A stretch of DNA of 64,000 nt, taken from the sequence record OR992645.1, one strand, 5' to 3'. The notes under the pieces were generated by a model. The model made no database searches. It had not been told where the DNA came from and worked only from the letters and a program-made list of their open reading frames with translations. Below, one piece after another: positions 3,449-33,181 of this stretch. Each line of letters opens with the position of its first letter. Position 1 is the stretch's first letter. The stretch is from Escherichia phage EI-SP-GF. The position numbers and the translations under genes are program-made.

Positions 3449-4657
3449 TCAGCAACCACAGCTTCCGTAGTGCTTAACCCGTTCTATAACTTCCGCTTGC
3501 TTACCTTTGTTGTAAGGTCGGGAGTTTGGACTGGACAGATACCCAGATACACGTCTAATCACACTGATCGTTCCCTCTTCATGGTTTCCGCACTCTGGGC
3601 ATACAAAGCCTTTAGCTGTTGCACTGAACTCACCAGAGAATCCGCACTTAAGACATTTATCCACAGGTTGGTTAATACCAAAATACATAATGTGTTTATA
3701 CCCGAAATCGACAAGGGATTCCAAAGCATCCAGGTTGTTTTTCAGGTTAGGTGTTTCTATGTATCCAATGTTACCGCCAGAAGAGATCATAGCAAAACCT
3801 TCCTCATACTTCCACTTGTCAAAAGGTGAGCTATTGATCCACACGGGCTGGTGGAAACTGTTGGTAAGGTATTCGTGCTCGTGCTTCAACACTTCAGGAT
3901 ATTCACGATCTAGACATGTTGCAGCCTTATAGCACAAGCTCTCTGAAGGAGTGCCGTACAAGCTGAATGCCAGACCACTTTCTTTTTTGTACCGATCACA
4001 AGCGTCTTTCATGTGCTGAAGGATCCCAAGAGCTAAGGACTTGTCTCCCTCTCTGCCTAAAATCTGGCAGGTTTCATACACACCAATATATCCAATACTT
4101 ATGGAAGCATACCCGTCATAGAAGAGTTTATCAATACTCTCTTCAGGATCCAGGCGAGCAAGAGCTCCTTCACACCACATGATGGGGTTCTGCCCTGCCT
4201 TTGTTCCTTTTAGACGGTTAACCCTTACAAGGTGAGCCTCGTATGCCAGATCCAAGTACTCGTCAAGAACTGCAAAGAAATCAACACCTTCCGTTTTAGC
4301 TTTTGCCGCAATCATTGGTAGGTTAAGGCTAACAACACCTAAGTTAAATCTGCCAAGGTATTTCTCCTCTCCTGTTTCCAAGTCATTGTATTTGCTAAGA
4401 AAACTCCGGCAACCCATGCTTGTGACATTACCTTCTGTTGAACCTGTCACTTTTCTATTCAGTGGTACAGATACGAAGTCAGGATAAATCCGCTCTGCAG
4501 AGCATTCCAGAGCTAATCGTTTCAAATCATAGTTAGGATCCTCGGGGTTCATGTTGATACCCTCCTCCAGGAAGAACAGCACCTTAGGGAACACAGGTGT
4601 GATACGTTCTTCACCAAGACCCATTTTGTGGACTTTCAGGTAGTTTTTGGTAATCAT
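3449..4657 (-). CDS. nrdD: anaerobic ribonucleoside-triphosphate reductase, exon 2 (C-terminal part with glycyl-radical site)
   Basis: C-terminal CPECGN zinc site and RRVSGYL glycyl-radical motif; frame is open up to 4750 so true exon start may lie between 4657 and 4750. Confidence 0.85.
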   Translation of the reverse strand: MITKNYLKVHKMGLGEERITPVFPKVLFFLEEGINMNPEDPNYDLKRLALECSAERIYPDFVSVPLNRKVTGSTEGNVTSMGCRSFLSKYNDLETGEEKYLGRFNLGVVSLNLPMIAAKAKTEGVDFFAVLDEYLDLAYEAHLVRVNRLKGTKAGQNPIMWCEGALARLDPEESIDKLFYDGYASISIGYIGVYETCQILGREGDKSLALGILQHMKDACDRYKKESGLAFSLYGTPSESLCYKAATCLDREYPEVLKHEHEYLTNSFHQPVWINSSPFDKWKYEEGFAMISSGGNIGYIETPNLKNNLDALESLVDFGYKHIMYFGINQPVDKCLKCGFSGEFSATAKGFVCPECGNHEEGTISVIRRVSGYLSSPNSRPYNKGKQAEVIERVKHYGSCGC

Positions 4658-5508
4658 TCTACCAAAGATTGAGGTATCCAGTCCTAAACTTAATGTGATG
4701 AATGGAGTCTGCTGTCTCCTCCCCGTGTTTCCACAGGGCCAGACTATCTCTTACTCTACTTCAATAAGATAATAACCCTTTATTGTGAGATGCTTACCTT
4801 CGGCATTTCCTTCGATAGCCCTATGAACGTTACCTACGTTCAAATTTAAGGCTTTTGCACAGGCATAGAGTGAAGGATATTCACCCACCAAGGTTTTCCC
4901 TTTGTATGCCTGCACTTTCCTATAGCACTTGCCTGGACAAAGTCCTGTTCGGAAAGCATGTCTCTTATTATCTTCCGGCAAAACCCACTCTAGGTTAGAC
5001 GGATGATCATTCAATGTATTGCCATCTTTATGATTCACTTCCCAGTTTTCAGGGTCTTCTGGGACATCTGGCAAACAATACAAGGCAACAATCCTTGAGG
5101 TTTGGATTCGAATCTTTTTACCTTTGTGGTTGAAAGAGTACATATAACGGCGTTTAACATGCTTGTTACCTTTTCCATAACCTCCCCACAATATTGGGTG
5201 TAGCATTCCACGTTTTCCGTATACGTTTCCAACCTCATCAATCACATAGTTTGATTCTTCACCATTAAGAATGATCTTTTTCATAGAGCCTCTCCATTTC
5301 GAAGTTAGTATTTCAACTAACCCCTACACTACTTGGTTCAGAAATGTTTGTCAAGCATCTCTGCCTTTCGTTAGTCGTTACAACCGTTCCAACTCCTGTA
5401 AGAACTAGTCACGGGATTGGCATAGCTTTCGCCTTAGCGTTCCCCGTTAGCCGGATTTACCGACCCCTCTTATGAGGTTAGGAGAGTTTTACAACGGCCA
5501 GTTTGTTA
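4658..5508 (-). mobile_element. group I self-splicing intron interrupting nrdD, carrying an HNH homing endonuclease ORF (boundaries approximate)
   Basis: Sequence between the two nrdD ORFs; minus strand has P7-type elements AACGACTAAC (5' part) and AAGAGATAGTCTGG (3' part) matching group I R/S consensus; free-standing endonuclease ORF between them. Confidence 0.7.
4751..5284 (-). CDS. HNH homing endonuclease (intron-encoded)
   Basis: HNH motif NHKDGNTLNDHPSNLEWV in a 177-aa protein located inside the nrdD intron. Confidence 0.75.
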   Translation of the reverse strand: MKKIILNGEESNYVIDEVGNVYGKRGMLHPILWGGYGKGNKHVKRRYMYSFNHKGKKIRIQTSRIVALYCLPDVPEDPENWEVNHKDGNTLNDHPSNLEWVLPEDNKRHAFRTGLCPGKCYRKVQAYKGKTLVGEYPSLYACAKALNLNVGNVHRAIEGNAEGKHLTIKGYYLIEVE

Positions 5509-6369
5509 ACCGTTGACAGAAGTTAACGTATTGATTTGGTATAGCAAAGTTTGCATACTATCAAACACGTCTTTATCCGTCATTTGCATTGCAACAGTCT
5601 CAGCATCCGGCAACCAATGTTCCTGACAAAATTTAAGATTCTTCTCATAGGTTGCTTCAGCATACTGCGCCAGATAATGATCAATATGGCTCATGGTCTG
5701 ACCACCATACTGAGCACTAGCTACTGCACTAGAGATTTGGCTGAGGATTGTTGTTGCAACCCCTATTGACTTCGGCTTACTGACATGGGCGTTGCCAATG
5801 TTGAATCCGTTTTCCAGCATATCCGGATAATTCACCAAACAGCAGTTTGTTAACGGACTGATCAGATAGTCAAGATCATGCACATGGATGAATCCCTTGT
5901 TGTGCTCTTCGGAGACACGATCTGGCAGTATCTGTGTTGATGCAAGGTGTTTGCTAAGGATACCTGCAAGCAGGTCACGATGAGTATGTACATGATTAGT
6001 GGGCTTATTTGCGTTTTCTTTTGTAAATTCATCACAAGTTCGATCCAAGAAGCCACTAATATCTGCAAGCAGTTTTCCACCTGCCTCTCTGTTATTATCT
6101 CTTGTCTGTCTATACTGGATATATTCTCTGGCTGCACATTTTAAACCCATATCCATAAGAGCATCTTCAACAAGGATATGGATATTTTTTACAGAGATCG
6201 TGCACTGGTCGGTTGGTAGATTGTTGGCAACAACTTCATTAACCGCACAAGCGATCCGGTAAGCTTCTTCTTCAGTATGCCCAGACTCAAGTAAGGCGGA
6301 CTCTGCCGCCTTGATTACCTTAACTCCGTTATAGACCTCTTCTCTACCGTCCCGTTTTACAACTTTCAC
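5506..6369 (-). CDS. nrdD: anaerobic ribonucleoside-triphosphate reductase, exon 1 (N-terminal ATP-cone part)
   Basis: Starts MKVVKRDGREEVY (ATP-cone-like); ORF ends at a stop that lies at the 5' edge of the intron, exon probably ends near 5509. Confidence 0.85.
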   Translation of the reverse strand: MKVVKRDGREEVYNGVKVIKAAESALLESGHTEEEAYRIACAVNEVVANNLPTDQCTISVKNIHILVEDALMDMGLKCAAREYIQYRQTRDNNREAGGKLLADISGFLDRTCDEFTKENANKPTNHVHTHRDLLAGILSKHLASTQILPDRVSEEHNKGFIHVHDLDYLISPLTNCCLVNYPDMLENGFNIGNAHVSKPKSIGVATTILSQISSAVASAQYGGQTMSHIDHYLAQYAEATYEKNLKFCQEHWLPDAETVAMQMTDKDVFDSMQTLLYQINTLTSVNG

Positions 6370-29272: not shown

Positions 29273-29344
29273 GCCCTGTTAGCTTAGTGGATAAAGCAGC
29301 GGCCTTCTAAGCCGTTGACACTGGTTCGAGTCCAGTACGGGGTG
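29273..29344 (+). tRNA. tRNA-Arg(TCT)
   Basis: Hand-folded cloverleaf: acceptor GCCCTGT/ACGGGGT, D-stem GCTT/AAGC, anticodon loop CTTCTAA, T-loop TTCGAGT, encoded CCA. Confidence 0.8.
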
Positions 29345-29477
29345 CCAAGTTCTTTTTAATGTAGCTTACTTTAGCAGAGTAAATCTTCGGCAAGTGGCGG
29401 TAACCACTTTACCGATACCTCATAGTTAGTGGTTAGAACACTAGCTATTTTAAAAAGAATTTAAATATTAGTATTTA

Positions 29478-29562
29478 GGTGAGTTAATTCCGTAGGGGTA
29501 GCGGGGCAGACTGTAAATCTGTTATCATTGCGATTCGGGTGGTTCGACTCCATCACTCACCA
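29478..29562 (+). tRNA. tRNA-Tyr(GTA), type II with long variable arm
   Basis: Acceptor GGTGAGT/ACTCACC, anticodon loop CTGTAAA, T-loop TTCGACT, CCA encoded. Confidence 0.75.
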
Positions 29563-29680
29563 CCAAATTTATATTTTTAAATGCATAAATCATACAGATA
29601 ATGGCATTGATATTTATCGTCGTTTATACTAGTCACTAACTGCTCGAAAATCAGTGTCATTATCAGTATTGTTTATAAAA

Positions 29681-29768
29681 GAGGGTAGGGAGCAATGGTG
29701 CTCAAGCGGTCTTGAAAACCGTCCCGTTGAGGATGACTCGATGATGGTTCGATTCCATTATCCTCTGC
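29681..29768 (+). tRNA. tRNA-Ser(TGA), type II
   Basis: Acceptor AGAGGGT/ATCCTCT, anticodon loop CTTGAAA, long variable arm, T-loop TTCGATT, CCA encoded. Confidence 0.7.
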
Positions 29769-29868
29769 CATATTGTTGACCTTGTAATTAAGCGAAAGCC
29801 GGAAGCAGAACCGGATTATCAAATGTTACAGTCGTCATCGCCGACTAGCAACATGGTCAACATACTGA

Positions 29869-29965
29869 GCTAGGTAAGCCCTTTGGCAAGGGCGAGGATT
29901 TTTAATCCTGAAAATAGACGAGGTAGTCGTTGAATACATAGATGGTTCGATTCCATCACCTAGCA
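29869..29965 (+). pseudogene. aberrant tRNA-like element (possible degenerate tRNA-Lys(TTT)-like)
   Basis: Canonical acceptor GCTAGGT/ACCTAGC, D-arm GCCC/GGGC and T-arm GATGG-TTCGATT-CCATC, but 97 nt long with about 30 nt between anticodon-like hairpin and T-arm. Confidence 0.35.
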
Positions 29966-29971
29966 CCTTTT

Positions 29972-30044
29972 GCTGATGTAGCACAATTGGCAGTGCAATT
30001 GATTTGTAATCAATAGGTTGCAGGTTCAAGTCCTGCCATCAGCA
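29972..30044 (+). tRNA. tRNA-Thr(TGT)
   Basis: Complete 73-nt cloverleaf: acceptor GCTGATG/CATCAGC, anticodon stem ATTGA/TCAAT with loop TTTGTAA, T-loop TTCAAGT, CCA encoded. Confidence 0.85.
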
Positions 30045-30048
30045 CCAT

Positions 30049-30120
30049 GGCCCTGTAGCTGGAAGGTTCAAGCAAGCGACTCATAATCGCCAGACGGTGG
30101 TTCAATTCCACCCAGGGCCA
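30049..30120 (+). tRNA. tRNA-Met(CAT) (elongator or Ile2-type)
   Basis: Acceptor GGCCCTG/CAGGGCC, anticodon loop CTCATAA, T-arm GGTGG-TTCAATT-CCACC; starts 1 nt after tRNA-Thr CCA. Confidence 0.8.
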
Positions 30121-30134
30121 CCAAATAATAAATA

Positions 30135-30208
30135 CTCCGCGTAGCTCAGCTTGGTAGAGCGCCTGATTTGGGATCAGGAGGTCGAGTGTTCGAATCACTC
30201 CGTGGAGA
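30135..30208 (+). tRNA. tRNA-Pro(TGG)
   Basis: Acceptor CTCCGCG/CGTGGAG (C1-G72 as in bacterial tRNA-Pro), D-arm AGCTCAGCTTGGTAGAGC, anticodon loop TTTGGGA, T-loop TTCGAAT. Confidence 0.85.
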
Positions 30209-30257
30209 CCACCTTTAGTTATACTTTAAATATATACACACAAAAGGAACCTTTAAA

Positions 30258-31031: not shown

Positions 31032-31315
31032 GAGTTACTGCACTGGTTGTTTTGTGCTTGTTATTGTGTGGGTGTGCAACCAGCGTTGAGAGAGAATACA
31101 AGATTGACCCTCCGGATGTAGGAAGGTTGATTGTTAAACCTCCCGAGGGTGCTATGAAACCACCTGCTAAAGCTATCCCTTTGAAGAAAGGTGCGCCAGA
31201 TGCGGTGAATTCTGGCATTATGAGGGATAATAACCTGTCTTGTAGTAATGATAGAGCTAAATTAATCATTTTGCAAGACTATATTAGAACACTGTTTCCA
31301 AAGGAGAGAGGTTAA
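31028..31315 (+). CDS. o-spanin (Rz1-like outer-membrane lipoprotein)
   Basis: Signal peptide with lipobox LLLCGC, Pro-rich mature part. Confidence 0.65.
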   Translation: MRVTALVVLCLLLCGCATSVEREYKIDPPDVGRLIVKPPEGAMKPPAKAIPLKKGAPDAVNSGIMRDNNLSCSNDRAKLIILQDYIRTLFPKERG

Positions 31316-31740
31316 TGTCTAAGATTTACGGACCGTGTTCTGAAAAGCAGAAGATGATCCTGGAAAATGATGCAGATATTTTGGTAATTGGCGGGGCTGC
31401 AGGATCTGGCAAGTCATTCCTCTTGCAGCTAATGCCGCTTAAAATTATTGATGACCCGCACAGCTCTGTGGTTATGTTCCGAAGAACAACCCCACAGTTG
31501 GAAGGTGAGGGGGGACTATGGCCTAAAGCAGTAGCTATTTATAGTGATCTGCCAGAAAACATTAAGCCAAAGTTTAGAGAGAAGGATCATAAGTTCATTT
31601 TTCCACGGTTTGATCCGAGCACTGGCAAGTGGGACAGGAGCAAAAAGGGAGCTGTTGTAAAATACTGCCACATGGAATATGTCCAAGATAAGCTTAACCA
31701 TCAGGGTTTGGAATACACCATGGTTTGCTTCGATGAGGGT
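31315..31740 (+). CDS. terminase large subunit, exon 1 (ATPase Walker A and B)
   Basis: Walker A GGAAGSGKS and Walker B MVCFDEG; ORF stops immediately after Walker B at the intron edge. Confidence 0.8.
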
Positions 31741-32092
31741 TAATTTGTAGCTCTCGTAAAACCTCCCTAATTGCGGGGAAATCTTTATTATTGACACCAC
31801 CAACCTGTCATGGTAACATAATAGAGGCTTCGAAGAGAGATCGAAGGTATGGTAACAGTGTGTTAATTTAGATAATCCGCAGCGAAGCATCCGAGAGGAT
31901 GAACGTTCAACGACTAGTCGAAAGACGTAGAATCAAGCGATTCGAAACGGGAGGGTAAGCGGTTGTTGTCGCTTATAAGATATAGTCTGGTCTGCATGGA
32001 GACATGCAGCTGCCTGAAAATGGCGGGGCAAGACTAGCGACCTTGCCCGAACATGAACGACACAATTCGAATGGGAGCAGATAGACTATCTG
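31741..32092 (+). ncRNA. group I intron (ORF-less) interrupting terminase large subunit; 3' boundary approximate (32057-32092)
   Basis: Canonical P/Q/R/S elements: AATTGCGGGGAAA (31769-31781), AATCCGCAGC (31874-31883), GTTCAACGACTAGTCG (31905-31920), AAGATATAGTCTGG (31977-31990); exon 1 ends with U. Confidence 0.7.
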
Positions 32093-33181
32093 ATGTCTCG
32101 TCTGCGATCTCAGTCAAAGTATCCATCAAGAATGGTTATCAGCTGTAACCCCGATTCAGAACACATGCTTGCCAAACTGGTTAGATGGTGGTTGGACGAT
32201 GAAGGGTATCCAGATCCGGAGAAATGCGGTAAGAAAAGATATTTTATCCGACGCGACGGTGAATTTATCTGGGGAGACTCTAAAGAAGAGTTGATAGAGA
32301 AATACACCACGGTTAACGGACTTGGCGTAGAGATCAAGCCAAGACCGTTGTCATTCTCGTTCATAGGCGCAACAATATTCGATAATCCTGTCTGTTTGAG
32401 AGACAACCCAGAATACCTTGCTTTCCTCGAAGGTCTACCAGAGCTGGAAAAAGCTCAGCTTCTCCATGGTAACTGGTTTGCAAAGCCTGAGGGTGCAAAC
32501 TATTTTCAAAGATCTTTCCTTCGTGATGCCGATAGAGTACCTCTTGGGTCAGTATCTTGCAGGGCATGGGATAAGGCAGGAACCGAGAGAACTTCCGGTA
32601 ATAAATTTCCTGACTTTACTGCCAGTATTAAGGTAAGTAAAGATAGCGACGGCTTTTATTACCTGTCCGGTGATTATTGTCCTGAGAACGTGGATGACGG
32701 GAGGTATTCCACAGGTCTGGAAGGCAAGTTCTGTAAAAAGGCTGGTGAACGAGATGTGATCATCAGGAAACAGGCGCAGTTCGATGGTGATGATTGCATA
32801 ATCGTCTTCTCTGTGGACCCAGGGCAGGCAGGTAAGAGTGAGTTCTTAACCTCCTCCAGATCCTTGCTTGCCGAAGGGTTCAGGGTTGAAGAAGACCCAA
32901 TGCCTTCCAACAAGTCTAAACTGACAAGGTTCTCACCTTTTGCCAATCTTGCCCAACAAGGAATGGTGAGGATTGTAAAATCCAGTTTCCATCCTGATAC
33001 TCTGGAAGCATTTCTGACTGAACTTGAAAAATTCAACGGGGAAAGATCAACATTTAACAGAAAAGACGACTGGGCCGACTGTGTAGCTTCTGCGATTAAT
33101 TTCCTAGAGAAAGAGGAGGTAGCACTTCCTTGTGTGATTCCATCAATCTCATCACCTTCTATGTTCAAGCGTTTTATCTAA
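32093..33181 (+). CDS. terminase large subunit, exon 2 (nuclease domain)
   Basis: Continues terminase after the intron in a different frame; frame open from 32057, so exon may start up to 36 nt upstream of ATG 32093. Confidence 0.75.
   Translation: MSRLRSQSKYPSRMVISCNPDSEHMLAKLVRWWLDDEGYPDPEKCGKKRYFIRRDGEFIWGDSKEELIEKYTTVNGLGVEIKPRPLSFSFIGATIFDNPVCLRDNPEYLAFLEGLPELEKAQLLHGNWFAKPEGANYFQRSFLRDADRVPLGSVSCRAWDKAGTERTSGNKFPDFTASIKVSKDSDGFYYLSGDYCPENVDDGRYSTGLEGKFCKKAGERDVIIRKQAQFDGDDCIIVFSVDPGQAGKSEFLTSSRSLLAEGFRVEEDPMPSNKSKLTRFSPFANLAQQGMVRIVKSSFHPDTLEAFLTELEKFNGERSTFNRKDDWADCVASAINFLEKEEVALPCVIPSISSPSMFKRFI

What the first reader, a model, noticed from the sequence alone, without database searches (positions are those of the whole stretch)
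31741..32092. Terminase large subunit gene interrupted by a compact ORF-less group I intron
The terminase ORF stops right after Walker B (MVCFDEG) and resumes in another frame about 350 nt later. The intervening sequence carries near-consensus P, Q, R and S elements and exon 1 ends in U. It shares the P7 core (ACGACTA/TAGTC) with the nrdD intron, suggesting related introns in one genome.
Basis: partly seen in the sequence, partly recalled or inferred. Interest (0 to 1): 0.6.

Follow-up and report, generated by a model that had tools for sequence, protein, structure and literature searches.

The report
Known group I intron in terminase
A 319-base group I (self-splicing type) intron does interrupt the DNA-packaging terminase gene of this rV5-like coliphage, but the same intron is already annotated and published for phage rV5 and its relatives, so the finding is correct and ordinary.

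Summary
The window is a Vequintavirus (rV5-like) genome. The terL reading frame stops at TAA 31741-31743 right after ...MVCFDEG and resumes in another frame. Rfam RF00028 matches 31731-32009 over its full length (84 bits, E 6e-20).

An intron-less terL allele in a sister phage (bov22_2) fixes the boundaries at 31741..32059. That is 319 nt, not 352 as reported. U31740 pairs with G31750 in P1 at the 5' splice site, and G32059 is the terminal G. Joining the exons gives a 515-aa TerL that matches the uninterrupted homologs through the invariant FDEG|TQFEW motif.

The intron has no ORF. About two thirds of intron-bearing relatives carry an Endo VII-type endonuclease gene in the P8 loop. The intron is polymorphic: 52 records have the site occupied and 53 have it empty.

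This is the rV5 "ORF64ABC" intron. It was described by Kropinski et al. 2013, noted for LL12, and annotated as a join in the BASEL phages. Splicing has been shown only in relatives (CB7, ICP1), not in Vequintavirus.

The two share only the family-wide R/S consensus. The nrdD intron itself is real (5508..4712, minus strand, with an HNH ORF).

Novelty: already known. Interest is low.

The parts
31315..31740 (+). terL exon 1 (142 codons: Walker A GAAGSGKS through Walker B ...MVCFDEG). The last base, U31740, is the 5' splice-site U.
   Evidence: ORF. Pfam Terminase_6N profile positions 2-104. Junction fixed by the intron-less allele.
31741..32059 (+). Group I intron, 319 nt, ORF-less, subgroup IA-like. 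It starts with an in-frame UAA and ends with the terminal G.
   Evidence: RF00028, 84 bits, E 6.4e-20. Alignment to intron-less bov22_2. No + strand ORF of 40 aa or more.
31733..31757 (+). P1 hairpin: 31733-31742 pairs with 31748-31757 (10/10 bp). U31740.G31750 wobble at the 5' splice site. The internal guide sequence lies at about 31745-31757.
   Evidence: also in the MFE fold and the Rfam alignment
31762..31767 (+). P3 5' strand (CCUCCC), pairs with 31949-31954. There is no P2 between P1 and P3; only AAAA (31758-31761) separates them.
31772..31881 (+). P4 (31772-31777 / 31876-31881; the P and Q elements) enclosing P5 (31781-31784 / 31870-31873) and an 85-nt three-way P5 extension (31785-31869).
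   Evidence: Most natural variation falls in the extension and preserves pairing.
31888..31901 (+). P6 hairpin (CAUCC GAGA GGAUG)
31912..31916 (+). P7 5' strand (GACUA, within the R element GUUCAACGACUA), pairs with 31983-31987. It forms a pseudoknot with P3.
31917..31943 (+). P7.1 (31917-31926, GUC-GAAA-GAC) and P7.2 (31930-31943, GAAUC-AAGC-GAUUC). These are extra hairpins between P7 and P3', the hallmark of subgroup IA.
   Evidence: They appear as an insertion relative to the RF00028 consensus.
31949..31954 (+). P3 3' strand (GGGAGG)
31956..31975 (+). P8 hairpin (7 bp, 6-nt loop). In about two thirds of intron-bearing relatives this hairpin is replaced by a different stem whose loop carries a 196-aa Endo VII-domain endonuclease ORF.
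31983..31987 (+). P7 3' strand (UAGUC, within the S element AAGAUAUAGUCU)
31992..32009 (+). P9 hairpin (CUGCAUG GAGA CAUGCAG). The stem is shared with terL intron 2 of rV5 and RudolfGeigy.
32013..32048 (+). 3' peripheral hairpins: a small stem 32013-32025 (MFE fold only) and P9.2 32026-32048 (7/7 bp).
32059..32059 (+). Terminal G (omega G), the last intron nucleotide
   Evidence: The junction is unambiguous because no bases are shared across the boundaries.
32060..33181 (+). terL exon 2 (373 codons plus stop), beginning ACA CAA UUC = TQFEWEQIDYL...
32376..32377 (+). Empty insertion site for a second terL group I intron. That intron is 268 nt and ORF-less in RudolfGeigy, and 979 nt with an HNH ORF in rV5. 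This window lacks it.

Best explanation
Window 31741..32059 is a 319-nt, ORF-less group I intron of the phage IA (T4-like) type. It is inserted in phase 0 between the Gly and Thr codons of the invariant Walker B/coupling motif FDEG|TQFEW of the large terminase gene of an rV5-like coliphage (Vequintavirus).

Inferred mechanism (textbook group I chemistry, not measured here): the terL transcript folds into P1-P9. An exogenous guanosine bound at P7 attacks after U31740, which sits in the U.G wobble of P1. The freed exon-1 3'-OH then attacks after G32059. This ligates the exons into one mRNA for the 515-aa TerL.

Shown directly here: the RNA family match, the helices, the splice-site geometry, the exact match to an empty site in sister phages, and the continuity of the joined protein.

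The element is the same intron annotated as the first of two terL introns in phage rV5. This copy has lost, or never had, the Endo VII-type homing endonuclease gene that most copies carry in P8. It therefore cannot home on its own and would need the endonuclease supplied by a co-infecting relative (inference).
For: - RF00028 full-length match, 84 bits, E 6.4e-20, + strand only.
- All core helices are fully canonical: P1 10/10 with U31740.G31750, P3 6/6, P4 6/6, P5 4/4, P6 5/5, P7 5/5, P7.1 3/3, P7.2 5/5, P8 7/7, P9 7/7, P9.2 7/7.
- Intron-less phage bov22_2 reads ...GATGAGGGC|ACGCAGTTC... exactly where the window has ...GATGAGGGT[319 nt]ACACAATTC....
- The joined protein is 99.8% identical to the one-piece bov22_2 TerL. 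It aligns without a gap across the junction with TerL of Seunavirus and Barbavirus phages, where F139-W147 are invariant.
- Pfam Terminase_6N: exon 1 covers profile positions 2-104 and exon 2 covers 111-211. The joined protein covers 2-211 in one stretch at 72.6 bits.
- Same site and near-identical sequence in rV5, where the CDS is a 3-piece join 'ORF64ABC', and in BASEL phages annotated as joins.
- Published as 'Introns in terminase' (PMC3606486) and for LL12 (PMC6658697).
- Presence/absence polymorphism at one site: 52 occupied and 53 empty records.
- Variable intron positions that lie in helices all keep pairing.
- Related terL introns splice in vivo: CB7 by RT-PCR and sequencing (PMC7344957); ICP1 by RNA-seq and RT-PCR (PMC10448857).
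Against: - I found no RNA-level evidence for any Vequintavirus. Splicing here is inferred.
- The thermodynamic signal is not strand-specific (z -4.2 sense, -3.8 antisense), so it adds little.
- Relatives of this intron are more than 95% identical. Only one-sided pair changes were seen, with no compensatory double changes.
- P10 is weak, 3-4 bp.
- At least one intron in the same subfamily (CB7 NAPRT) did not splice by RT-PCR, so an intron-like insertion does not guarantee splicing.
Confidence: 0.93

Rival explanations
1. Genes-in-pieces: the insertion is intron-like but is not spliced. TerL is made as two polypeptides (exon 1 product 142 aa; exon 2 product from ATG 32093, 362 aa) that assemble after translation, as reported for Aeromonas phage Aeh1 NrdA.
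For: Both pieces are ORFs with ATG starts, and several GenBank records annotate them as two CDS. CB7's NAPRT insertion did not splice in RT-PCR, and the Aeh1 precedent is cited in PMC7344957.
Against: - Starting at ATG 32093 would drop TQFEWEQIDYL, which is invariant or nearly so in homologs.
- The nearest GGAG lies about 16 nt upstream of that ATG, which is poor spacing for a ribosome-binding site.
- The RNA has a complete catalytic core that is invariant outside peripheral loops. Such conservation is unexpected for a non-functional spacer.
- The U.G pair and terminal G sit exactly at the boundaries of the empty site.
Confidence: 0.04
2. A decaying intron relic or a defective allele. Having lost its endonuclease ORF, the ribozyme is accumulating damage and this phage's terL is impaired or a pseudogene.
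For: The copy has no ORF. The window carries a private G at 32055, four bases before the 3' splice site, where the four aligned relatives have A.
Against: - TerL is essential for packaging.
- Nineteen database records from independently isolated, plaque-forming phages (for example LL12 and JohannBauhin) carry the same ORF-less form.
- Core helices are intact.
- The intron outside P8 varies at 10 of 297 sites, against 82 of 1548 in the exons, where change is almost all at third codon positions.
Confidence: 0.02
3. Translational recoding (ribosomal bypass or frameshift, as in T4 gene 60) joins the two frames without RNA splicing.
For: A stop codon sits immediately after a Gly codon and the downstream frame differs.
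Against: The gap is 319 nt, far beyond the 50-nt T4 gene 60 bypass (established knowledge). The gap is a textbook group I fold. No take-off and landing codon match exists: GGU at the exon 1 end, ACG/ACA at the landing region.
Confidence: 0.005

Closest known systems
Phage rV5 terL intron 1 (GenBank DQ832317 / NC_011041, CDS 'ORF64ABC'; Kropinski et al. 2013, Virol J 10:76, section 'Introns in terminase')
   Same: Same gene and same insertion site (FDEG|TQF). The intron sequence differs at 5 of 319 positions. It is ORF-less in rV5 too.
   Different: rV5 also has a second terL intron of 979 nt with an HNH ORF, 317 nt into exon 2. In this window that site (32376|32377) is empty.
ORF-less single-intron terL configuration of LL12 (MH491969; PMC6658697), BASEL phage JohannBauhin (MZ501083, CDS join of 2), slur16, magaca
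   Same: Identical architecture: one ORF-less intron, gene span 1867 nt, 96.7-98.7% identity.
   Different: None of substance. Some of these records (magaca, slur16) still annotate two separate CDS instead of a join.
ORF-containing version of the same intron (MaxBurger, DrSchubert, rV5_ev146, nomo, JES-2013 and others)
   Same: Same site and same ribozyme core.
   Different: The P8 stem is replaced, and its loop holds a 196-aa ORF with a Pfam Endonuclease_7 domain (76 bits). Intron-encoded Endo VII-motif proteins of this group (phage JES-2013) are listed as homing endonucleases in PMC6083498.
T4 introns (td, nrdB, nrdD/sunY), the classic subgroup IA2 phage introns
   Same: Phage-borne and located in a conserved motif of an essential or metabolic gene. 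Both have P7.1/P7.2 extra helices. The P7-P8-P7' region is 71.6% identical to the T4 nrdB intron over 109 nt, and T4 holds three matching places. An in-frame stop follows the 5' splice site.
   Different: The host gene differs. This intron has a large P5 extension, no P2, and no ORF. The T4 introns carry I-TevI, I-TevII or I-TevIII, which are GIY-YIG or HNH enzymes rather than the Endo VII type.
Certrevirus terL intron (Pectobacterium phages CB7 and phiTE)
   Same: Same phage subfamily (Vequintavirinae), orthologous TerL, and a group I intron in the Walker B motif. Splicing of the CB7 copy was shown by RT-PCR and sequencing (PMC7344957).
   Different: It is inserted two codons upstream (GVD|EGTQF). 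It is a different intron: RF00028 35 bits across a 934-nt span, with an HNH_3 ORF.
Vibrio phage ICP1 terL intron (Barth et al. 2023, PMC10448857)
   Same: An ORF-less intron in a homologous terL (34% identity). Splicing was confirmed by RNA-seq and RT-PCR. The short N-terminal exon is commonly missed by annotation pipelines.
   Different: The associated homing endonuclease (T5orf172) is free-standing next to the gene. I did not compare the insertion sites.
Lactobacillus phage LL-H terL group I intron (Mikkonen and Alatossava 1995)
   Same: The first terL group I intron reported, cited as the only precedent by Kropinski 2013.
   Different: It is in a siphovirus of a Gram-positive host. I examined neither its sequence nor its site.

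Membership tests
Group I catalytic intron (Rfam RF00028) | Covariance-model score above the curated gathering threshold over the full model | tested here: met
   84 bits against a threshold of 50, E 6.4e-20, model positions 1-253 of 253, + strand
Group I catalytic intron (Rfam RF00028) | P1 helix formed by the exon 1 end and the internal guide sequence, with a U.G wobble at the 5' splice site | tested here: met
   P1 is 10/10 bp. U31740.G31750 lies exactly at the boundary defined independently by the intron-less allele.
Group I catalytic intron (Rfam RF00028) | Terminal guanosine (omega G) as the last intron nucleotide | tested here: met
   G32059 immediately precedes exon 2
Group I catalytic intron (Rfam RF00028) | Conserved core P3-P8, with the P3/P7 pseudoknot and the P, Q, R and S elements | tested here: met
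   All helices are canonical. The P, Q, R and S elements are near-identical to the consensus in the CM alignment.
Group I catalytic intron (Rfam RF00028) | P10 pairing between the guide sequence and the start of exon 2 | tested here: inconclusive
   Only 3-4 bp are possible (UGU/ACA or UUGU/ACAA)
Group I catalytic intron (Rfam RF00028) | Removal restores an intact, homologous reading frame | tested here: met
   The joined 515-aa TerL is 99.8% identical to the one-piece bov22_2 TerL and collinear with distant TerLs. Pfam Terminase_6N is continuous across the junction.
Group I catalytic intron (Rfam RF00028) | Guanosine-dependent self-splicing or in vivo exon ligation | not testable with these tools
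   No Vequintavirus RNA data found. Shown only for the related terL introns of CB7 and ICP1.
Subgroup IA (T4-like phage introns) | Extra helices P7.1/P7.2 between the P7 5' strand and the P3 3' strand | tested here: met
   Hairpins 31917-31926 and 31930-31943 appear as an insertion at that point of the RF00028 alignment. That these helices define subgroup IA rests on my knowledge of the Michel and Westhof classification.
Subgroup IA (T4-like phage introns) | Sequence similarity of the core to T4 introns | tested here: met
   71.6% over 109 nt to the T4 nrdB intron, with three places in T4. 72.6% over 190 nt to a phiKZ intron.
Mobile (homing) group I intron | The intron encodes a homing endonuclease | tested here: not met
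   No ORF of 40 aa or more on the + strand in 31741-32059. Nineteen records share this ORF-less P8. Sister copies carry an Endonuclease_7-domain ORF in P8.
Mobile (homing) group I intron | Presence/absence polymorphism at one identical site among close relatives | tested here: met
   52 occupied and 53 empty records in the phage collection. The 3' junction occurs in 48 records.
Mobile (homing) group I intron | Endonuclease-dependent transfer to intron-less alleles in mixed infection | not testable with these tools
   Requires phage crosses
rV5 terL intron 1 (same element as in DQ832317) | Same insertion site and near-identical sequence | tested here: met
   5 differences in 319 nt and an identical junction
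   The best local alignment is the R element only, z = 1.3 against shuffles. The positive control (terL intron 1 against terL intron 2) gives z = 11.7.

The most novel reading that the evidence does not exclude
The roughly 50:50 intron polymorphism in Vequintavirus may be a stable stand-off rather than an ongoing sweep.

Every intron-less terL allele I inspected carries three synonymous differences at -1, +3 and +6 of the insertion site (GGC|ACGCAG). Every intron-bearing allele I inspected carries GGU|ACACAA.

If these changes make the empty site resistant to the Endo VII-type intron endonuclease, and the -1 C also makes it unfit for the U.G splice-site pair, then intron-less phages are immune alleles. 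ORF-less copies such as this one would then persist as passengers that rely on endonuclease from co-infecting ORF-bearing relatives.
Probability: 0.3. Interest if true: 0.3.

Novelty: already known. Interest (0 to 1): 0.12.

Why it matters
The main value is for annotation and method. The first-stage reader recognised a real ribozyme from raw sequence. The correct CDS is join(31315..31740, 32060..33181). Many public records of this genus still list two "terminase" fragments, or call the N-terminal exon hypothetical.

Biologically it is one more case of a mobile group I intron sitting in the most conserved motif of an essential phage gene. The genus-wide picture assembled here could make Vequintavirus terL a convenient natural system for studying intron gain, endonuclease loss and target-site immunity. 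That picture has two independent intron sites, each in empty, ORF-less and ORF-bearing states, plus a third intron two codons away in Certrevirus. None of it is conceptually new.

Tried and rejected
- **Thermodynamic stability as evidence.** The sense strand folds at z = -4.2, but the antisense strand reaches -3.8. It is not discriminating, so I did not rely on it.
- **Covariation among relatives.** All copies of this intron are more than 95% identical. Only one-sided pair changes were seen, so this is no independent proof of structure. I did not build a custom covariance model, because a model of about 320 positions would exceed the calibration limit and Rfam already gives E 6e-20.
- **Relatedness of the terL and nrdD introns.** Tested by local alignment against shuffles and rejected.
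- **P10 pairing as the reason for the +3/+6 synonymous differences.** Rejected. ACG/GCAG can still pair with the guide sequence through G.U wobbles (reasoned). Co-conversion or endonuclease target-site variation is more likely. Only the -1 U/C difference has a clear splicing rationale.
- **Orthology with the RT-PCR-validated CB7/phiTE terL intron.** Rejected. That intron is inserted 6 nt upstream and is a different intron.
- **Other introns in the window.** Rfam at E up to 1 finds only the nrdD one, at 24 bits, weakened by its 534-nt ORF.
- **Literature search for splicing experiments in Vequintavirus.** Nothing found.
- **Technical limit.** Loci fetched in parallel calls were not all exported to the Python sandbox, so cross-locus comparisons were done with DNA alignment instead.

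Full report
**Source of the window.** A megablast of the terL region finds 142 phage records. Of these, 116 cover at least 80% of the query, nearly all at 95-99% identity. They are all rV5-like coliphages (Vequintavirus); the best match is Escherichia phage magaca at 98.7%. The surrounding genes fit: a tRNA cluster, i-spanin, o-spanin, terL and portal.

**Checking the observation.** ORF 31315..31743 encodes MSKIYG...GAAGSGKS...YTMVCFDEG and stops at TAA 31741-31743. A second terminase ORF runs to 33181 in a different frame. Its first ATG is at 32093, but the frame is open from 32057. Rfam's group I intron model RF00028 matches 31731-32009 on the + strand over the whole model: 84 bits, gathering score 50, E 6.4e-20. 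The P, Q, R and S elements are near-consensus.

**Exact boundaries.** tblastn with the conceptually spliced protein found a Vequintavirus, vb_EcoM_bov22_2, whose terL is a single uninterrupted 1545-nt match at 99.8% identity. Aligning it to the window gives ...TTCGATGAGGGC|ACGCAGTTCGAATGG... against ...TTCGATGAGGGT[319 nt]ACACAATTCGAATGG.... No bases are shared across either boundary, so the junction is unambiguous: the intron is 31741..32059.

Exon 1 ends with a complete Gly codon, so the intron is in phase 0. Its length of 319 = 3 x 106 + 1 explains the frame change.

**The joined protein.** The joined protein is 515 aa.
- Pfam Terminase_6N covers profile positions 2-104 in exon 1 alone and 111-211 in exon 2 alone. 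In the joined protein it covers 2-211 in one stretch (72.6 bits), followed by the Terminase_6C nuclease domain.
- In an alignment with one-piece TerLs from Vequintavirus, Seunavirus and Barbavirus, the residues around the junction (F139 D E G T Q F E W147) are invariant.

The intron sits in the most conserved motif of the ATPase, which is the usual location for homing introns.

**RNA anatomy.** Base-by-base checks give:
- P1: 31733-42 / 31748-57, 10/10 bp, with U31740.G31750 at the 5' splice site
- no P2
- P3: 31762-67 / 31949-54
- P4: 31772-77 / 31876-81
- P5: 31781-84 / 31870-73, carrying an 85-nt three-way extension
- P6: 31888-31901
- P7: 31912-16 / 31983-87, pseudoknotted with P3
- P7.1 (31917-26) and P7.2 (31930-43), two small hairpins between P7 and P3'
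- P8: 31956-75
- P9: 31992-32009
- P9.2: 32026-48
- terminal G: 32059

P7.1 and P7.2 are the signature of subgroup IA, the T4-like group (classification from my own knowledge). In agreement, the core is about 72% identical to the T4 nrdB intron and to a phiKZ intron.

P10 is weak, at 3-4 bp. The MFE fold recovers most helices (z = -4.2), but the antisense strand also folds well (z = -3.8), so I give thermodynamics no weight.

No + strand ORF of 40 aa or more lies in the intron. The 124-aa minus-strand ORF 31516..31890 overlaps exon 1 antisense and is an artefact of ORF listing.

**Comparative picture.** An alignment of terL from the window, JohannBauhin, RudolfGeigy, MaxBurger and rV5 shows two independent intron sites.

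*Site 1* (this finding) is occupied in all five. In MaxBurger the P8 hairpin is replaced by another stem, whose loop holds a 196-aa ORF with a Pfam Endonuclease_7 domain (76 bits).

*Site 2* (window 32376|32377) is empty in the window, JohannBauhin and MaxBurger. It holds a 268-nt ORF-less intron in RudolfGeigy (RF00028, 95.6 bits) and a 979-nt intron with an HNH_3 ORF in rV5.

Junction-spanning 50-nt probes, which cannot seed across an occupied or empty site, give a census of the phage collection:

| State | Records |
|---|---|
| Site 1 empty | 53 |
| Site 1, 5' junction present | 52 |
| Site 1, 3' junction present | 48 |
| ORF-less P8 | 19 |
| Site 2 empty | 69 |

These counts include some GenBank/RefSeq duplicates. 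The intron is a common polymorphism, and the ORF-less state seen here accounts for roughly a third of occupied sites.

**Conservation.** Outside P8 the intron varies at 10 of 297 positions among the five phages. The exons vary at 82 of 1548, almost all at third codon positions. Variable intron positions lie in the P5 extension, in loops, or change G.U to A-U or C-G to U.G, and pairing is always kept. There are no double compensatory changes because the copies are too similar.

**Flanking exon signature.** All five aligned intron-bearing alleles read GGT|ACACAA. The intron-less alleles read GGC|ACGCAG. Forty-nine of the 53 empty-site records match the bov22_2 probe exactly, and Phage 203 and V18 also carry C/ACGCAG. 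U at -1 is required for the U.G pair. The +3 and +6 changes would still allow wobble pairing in P10, so they more likely reflect co-conversion or endonuclease target-site variation. This is inference.

**The nrdD claim.** A second intron does exist in the window, on the minus strand, at 5508..4712 (797 nt).
- Exon 1 ends ...SVNG with GGU, followed by an in-frame UAA.
- Its P1 is AACGGU/GCCGUU.
- It carries a 177-aa HNH_3 ORF (5284..4751).
- Exon 2 starts with QTPF.
- The spliced NrdD matches the NCBIfam equivalog NF006732 in one stretch, 1-702, at 828 bits.
- Rfam sees the intron only weakly (24 bits) because of the ORF insertion.

It does contain ACGACUA and UAGUC. These are essentially the family-wide R/S consensus. 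The best local alignment between the two introns scores no better than shuffles (z = 1.3). terL intron 1 against terL intron 2 scores z = 11.7 through a shared P7'-P9 block. The inference of a specific relationship is not supported.

**Comparison with what is known.** The element is already on record.
- The rV5 GenBank entry annotates terL as a three-piece join ('ORF64ABC') with an HNH homing endonuclease in the second intron.
- Kropinski et al. 2013 devote a section to 'Introns in terminase' and thank D. Shub for defining the intron location.
- The LL12 announcement states that terL and the DNA polymerase gene are interrupted by introns.
- The BASEL collection annotates joins in its Vequintavirus genomes.
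- Intron-encoded Endo VII-motif endonucleases, including that of the rV5-like phage JES-2013, are discussed in the F-CphI paper.

Splicing has been demonstrated for terL introns in the sister genus Certrevirus (CB7, RT-PCR and sequencing) and in ICP1 (RNA-seq and RT-PCR). The Certrevirus intron is a different element, inserted two codons upstream at GVD|EGTQF. I found no RNA-level test in Vequintavirus itself.

**Verdict.** The finding is real and correctly interpreted, with a corrected 3' boundary (32059) and one unsupported side claim. It is the ORF-less form of the known rV5 terL intron 1, a mobile IA-type group I intron. Novelty: already known. Interest is low. Its value lies in correct annotation, join(31315..31740, 32060..33181), and in a tidy natural polymorphism that could serve studies of intron and endonuclease dynamics.

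Noticed in passing
window 4712..5508 (minus strand); ORF 4751..5284 (minus strand): A second group I intron (797 nt) splits nrdD (exon 1 5509..6369, exon 2 3449..4711). It carries a 177-aa HNH_3/NUMOD-like endonuclease ORF between P7 and P7'. Exon 1 ends GGU and is followed by an in-frame UAA, as in terL. The spliced NrdD matches NF006732 end to end (828 bits). Rfam scores the intron at only 24 bits because of the ORF insertion.
   Followed up: yes
window 32376|32377: This is the empty target site of a second terL intron. That intron is present in rV5 (979 nt, HNH ORF) and RudolfGeigy (268 nt, ORF-less; RF00028 95.6 bits). Occupied alleles read GCAACCAT at the site, and the window reads GCAACAAT. 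Sixty-nine records share the empty site.
   Followed up: partly
window 31740 and 32062, 32065 (exon positions -1, +3, +6 around the intron): Three synonymous differences are strictly linked to intron presence in every allele inspected: GGT|ACACAA with the intron, GGC|ACGCAG without it. This may be a co-conversion tract or an endonuclease-immune empty site. The -1 U is needed for the U.G splice-site pair.
   Followed up: partly
L004:1327-1917 (MaxBurger), corresponding to window P8 31956..31975: In about two thirds of intron-bearing relatives the P8 stem is replaced and its loop holds a 196-aa ORF with a Pfam Endonuclease_7 (T4 Endo VII-like) domain. This is a less common type of intron-encoded homing endonuclease, already noted in the literature for JES-2013.
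   Followed up: partly
L008:685-1653 (Pectobacterium phage phiTE): The Certrevirus terL intron is inserted at GVD|EGTQF, only 6 nt upstream of the Vequintavirus site (FDEG|TQF). The Walker B motif of this TerL family is therefore a hot spot hit by at least two different introns.
   Followed up: yes
window 32055: The window has a private G four bases before the 3' splice site (ACATGAACG). All four aligned relatives have A (ACATAAACG). The position is unpaired in the MFE fold, and its effect on 3' splice-site choice is unknown.
   Followed up: no
window 29273..30211: The tRNA cluster upstream of the lysis and terL genes holds Arg-TCT, Ser-TGA, Thr-TGT, Met-CAT and Pro-TGG. It also has a 99-nt tRNA-like gene (29869..29967) for which ARAGORN calls a 4-base anticodon (labelled 'tRNA-OTHER' in magaca). 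Rfam additionally calls an 85-nt tRNA at 29478..29562 (39 bits) that ARAGORN does not report.
   Followed up: no
phage collection records MG0656xx ('Campylobacter phage C2, C12, A147 ...'): About 18 records named Campylobacter phages are 97% or more identical to rV5-like coliphages across terL, with both intron-bearing and intron-less forms. The host labels look doubtful, or the phages were propagated on contaminating E. coli.
   Followed up: no
L001 (magaca MN850612) and L011 (V18 KY683736): Annotation and assembly problems in relatives. magaca labels the o-spanin as 'putative large terminase subunit' and lists the terL exons as two separate CDS. V18 has a short duplication and a 1-nt deletion just upstream of the empty intron site, which splits terL into two 'hypothetical proteins'. 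This is probably a sequencing or assembly error.
   Followed up: partly
window 31516..31890 (minus strand): A 124-aa antisense ORF overlaps exon 1 and the 5' half of the intron. I did not search it for homologs and treat it as an artefact of ORF listing.
   Followed up: no
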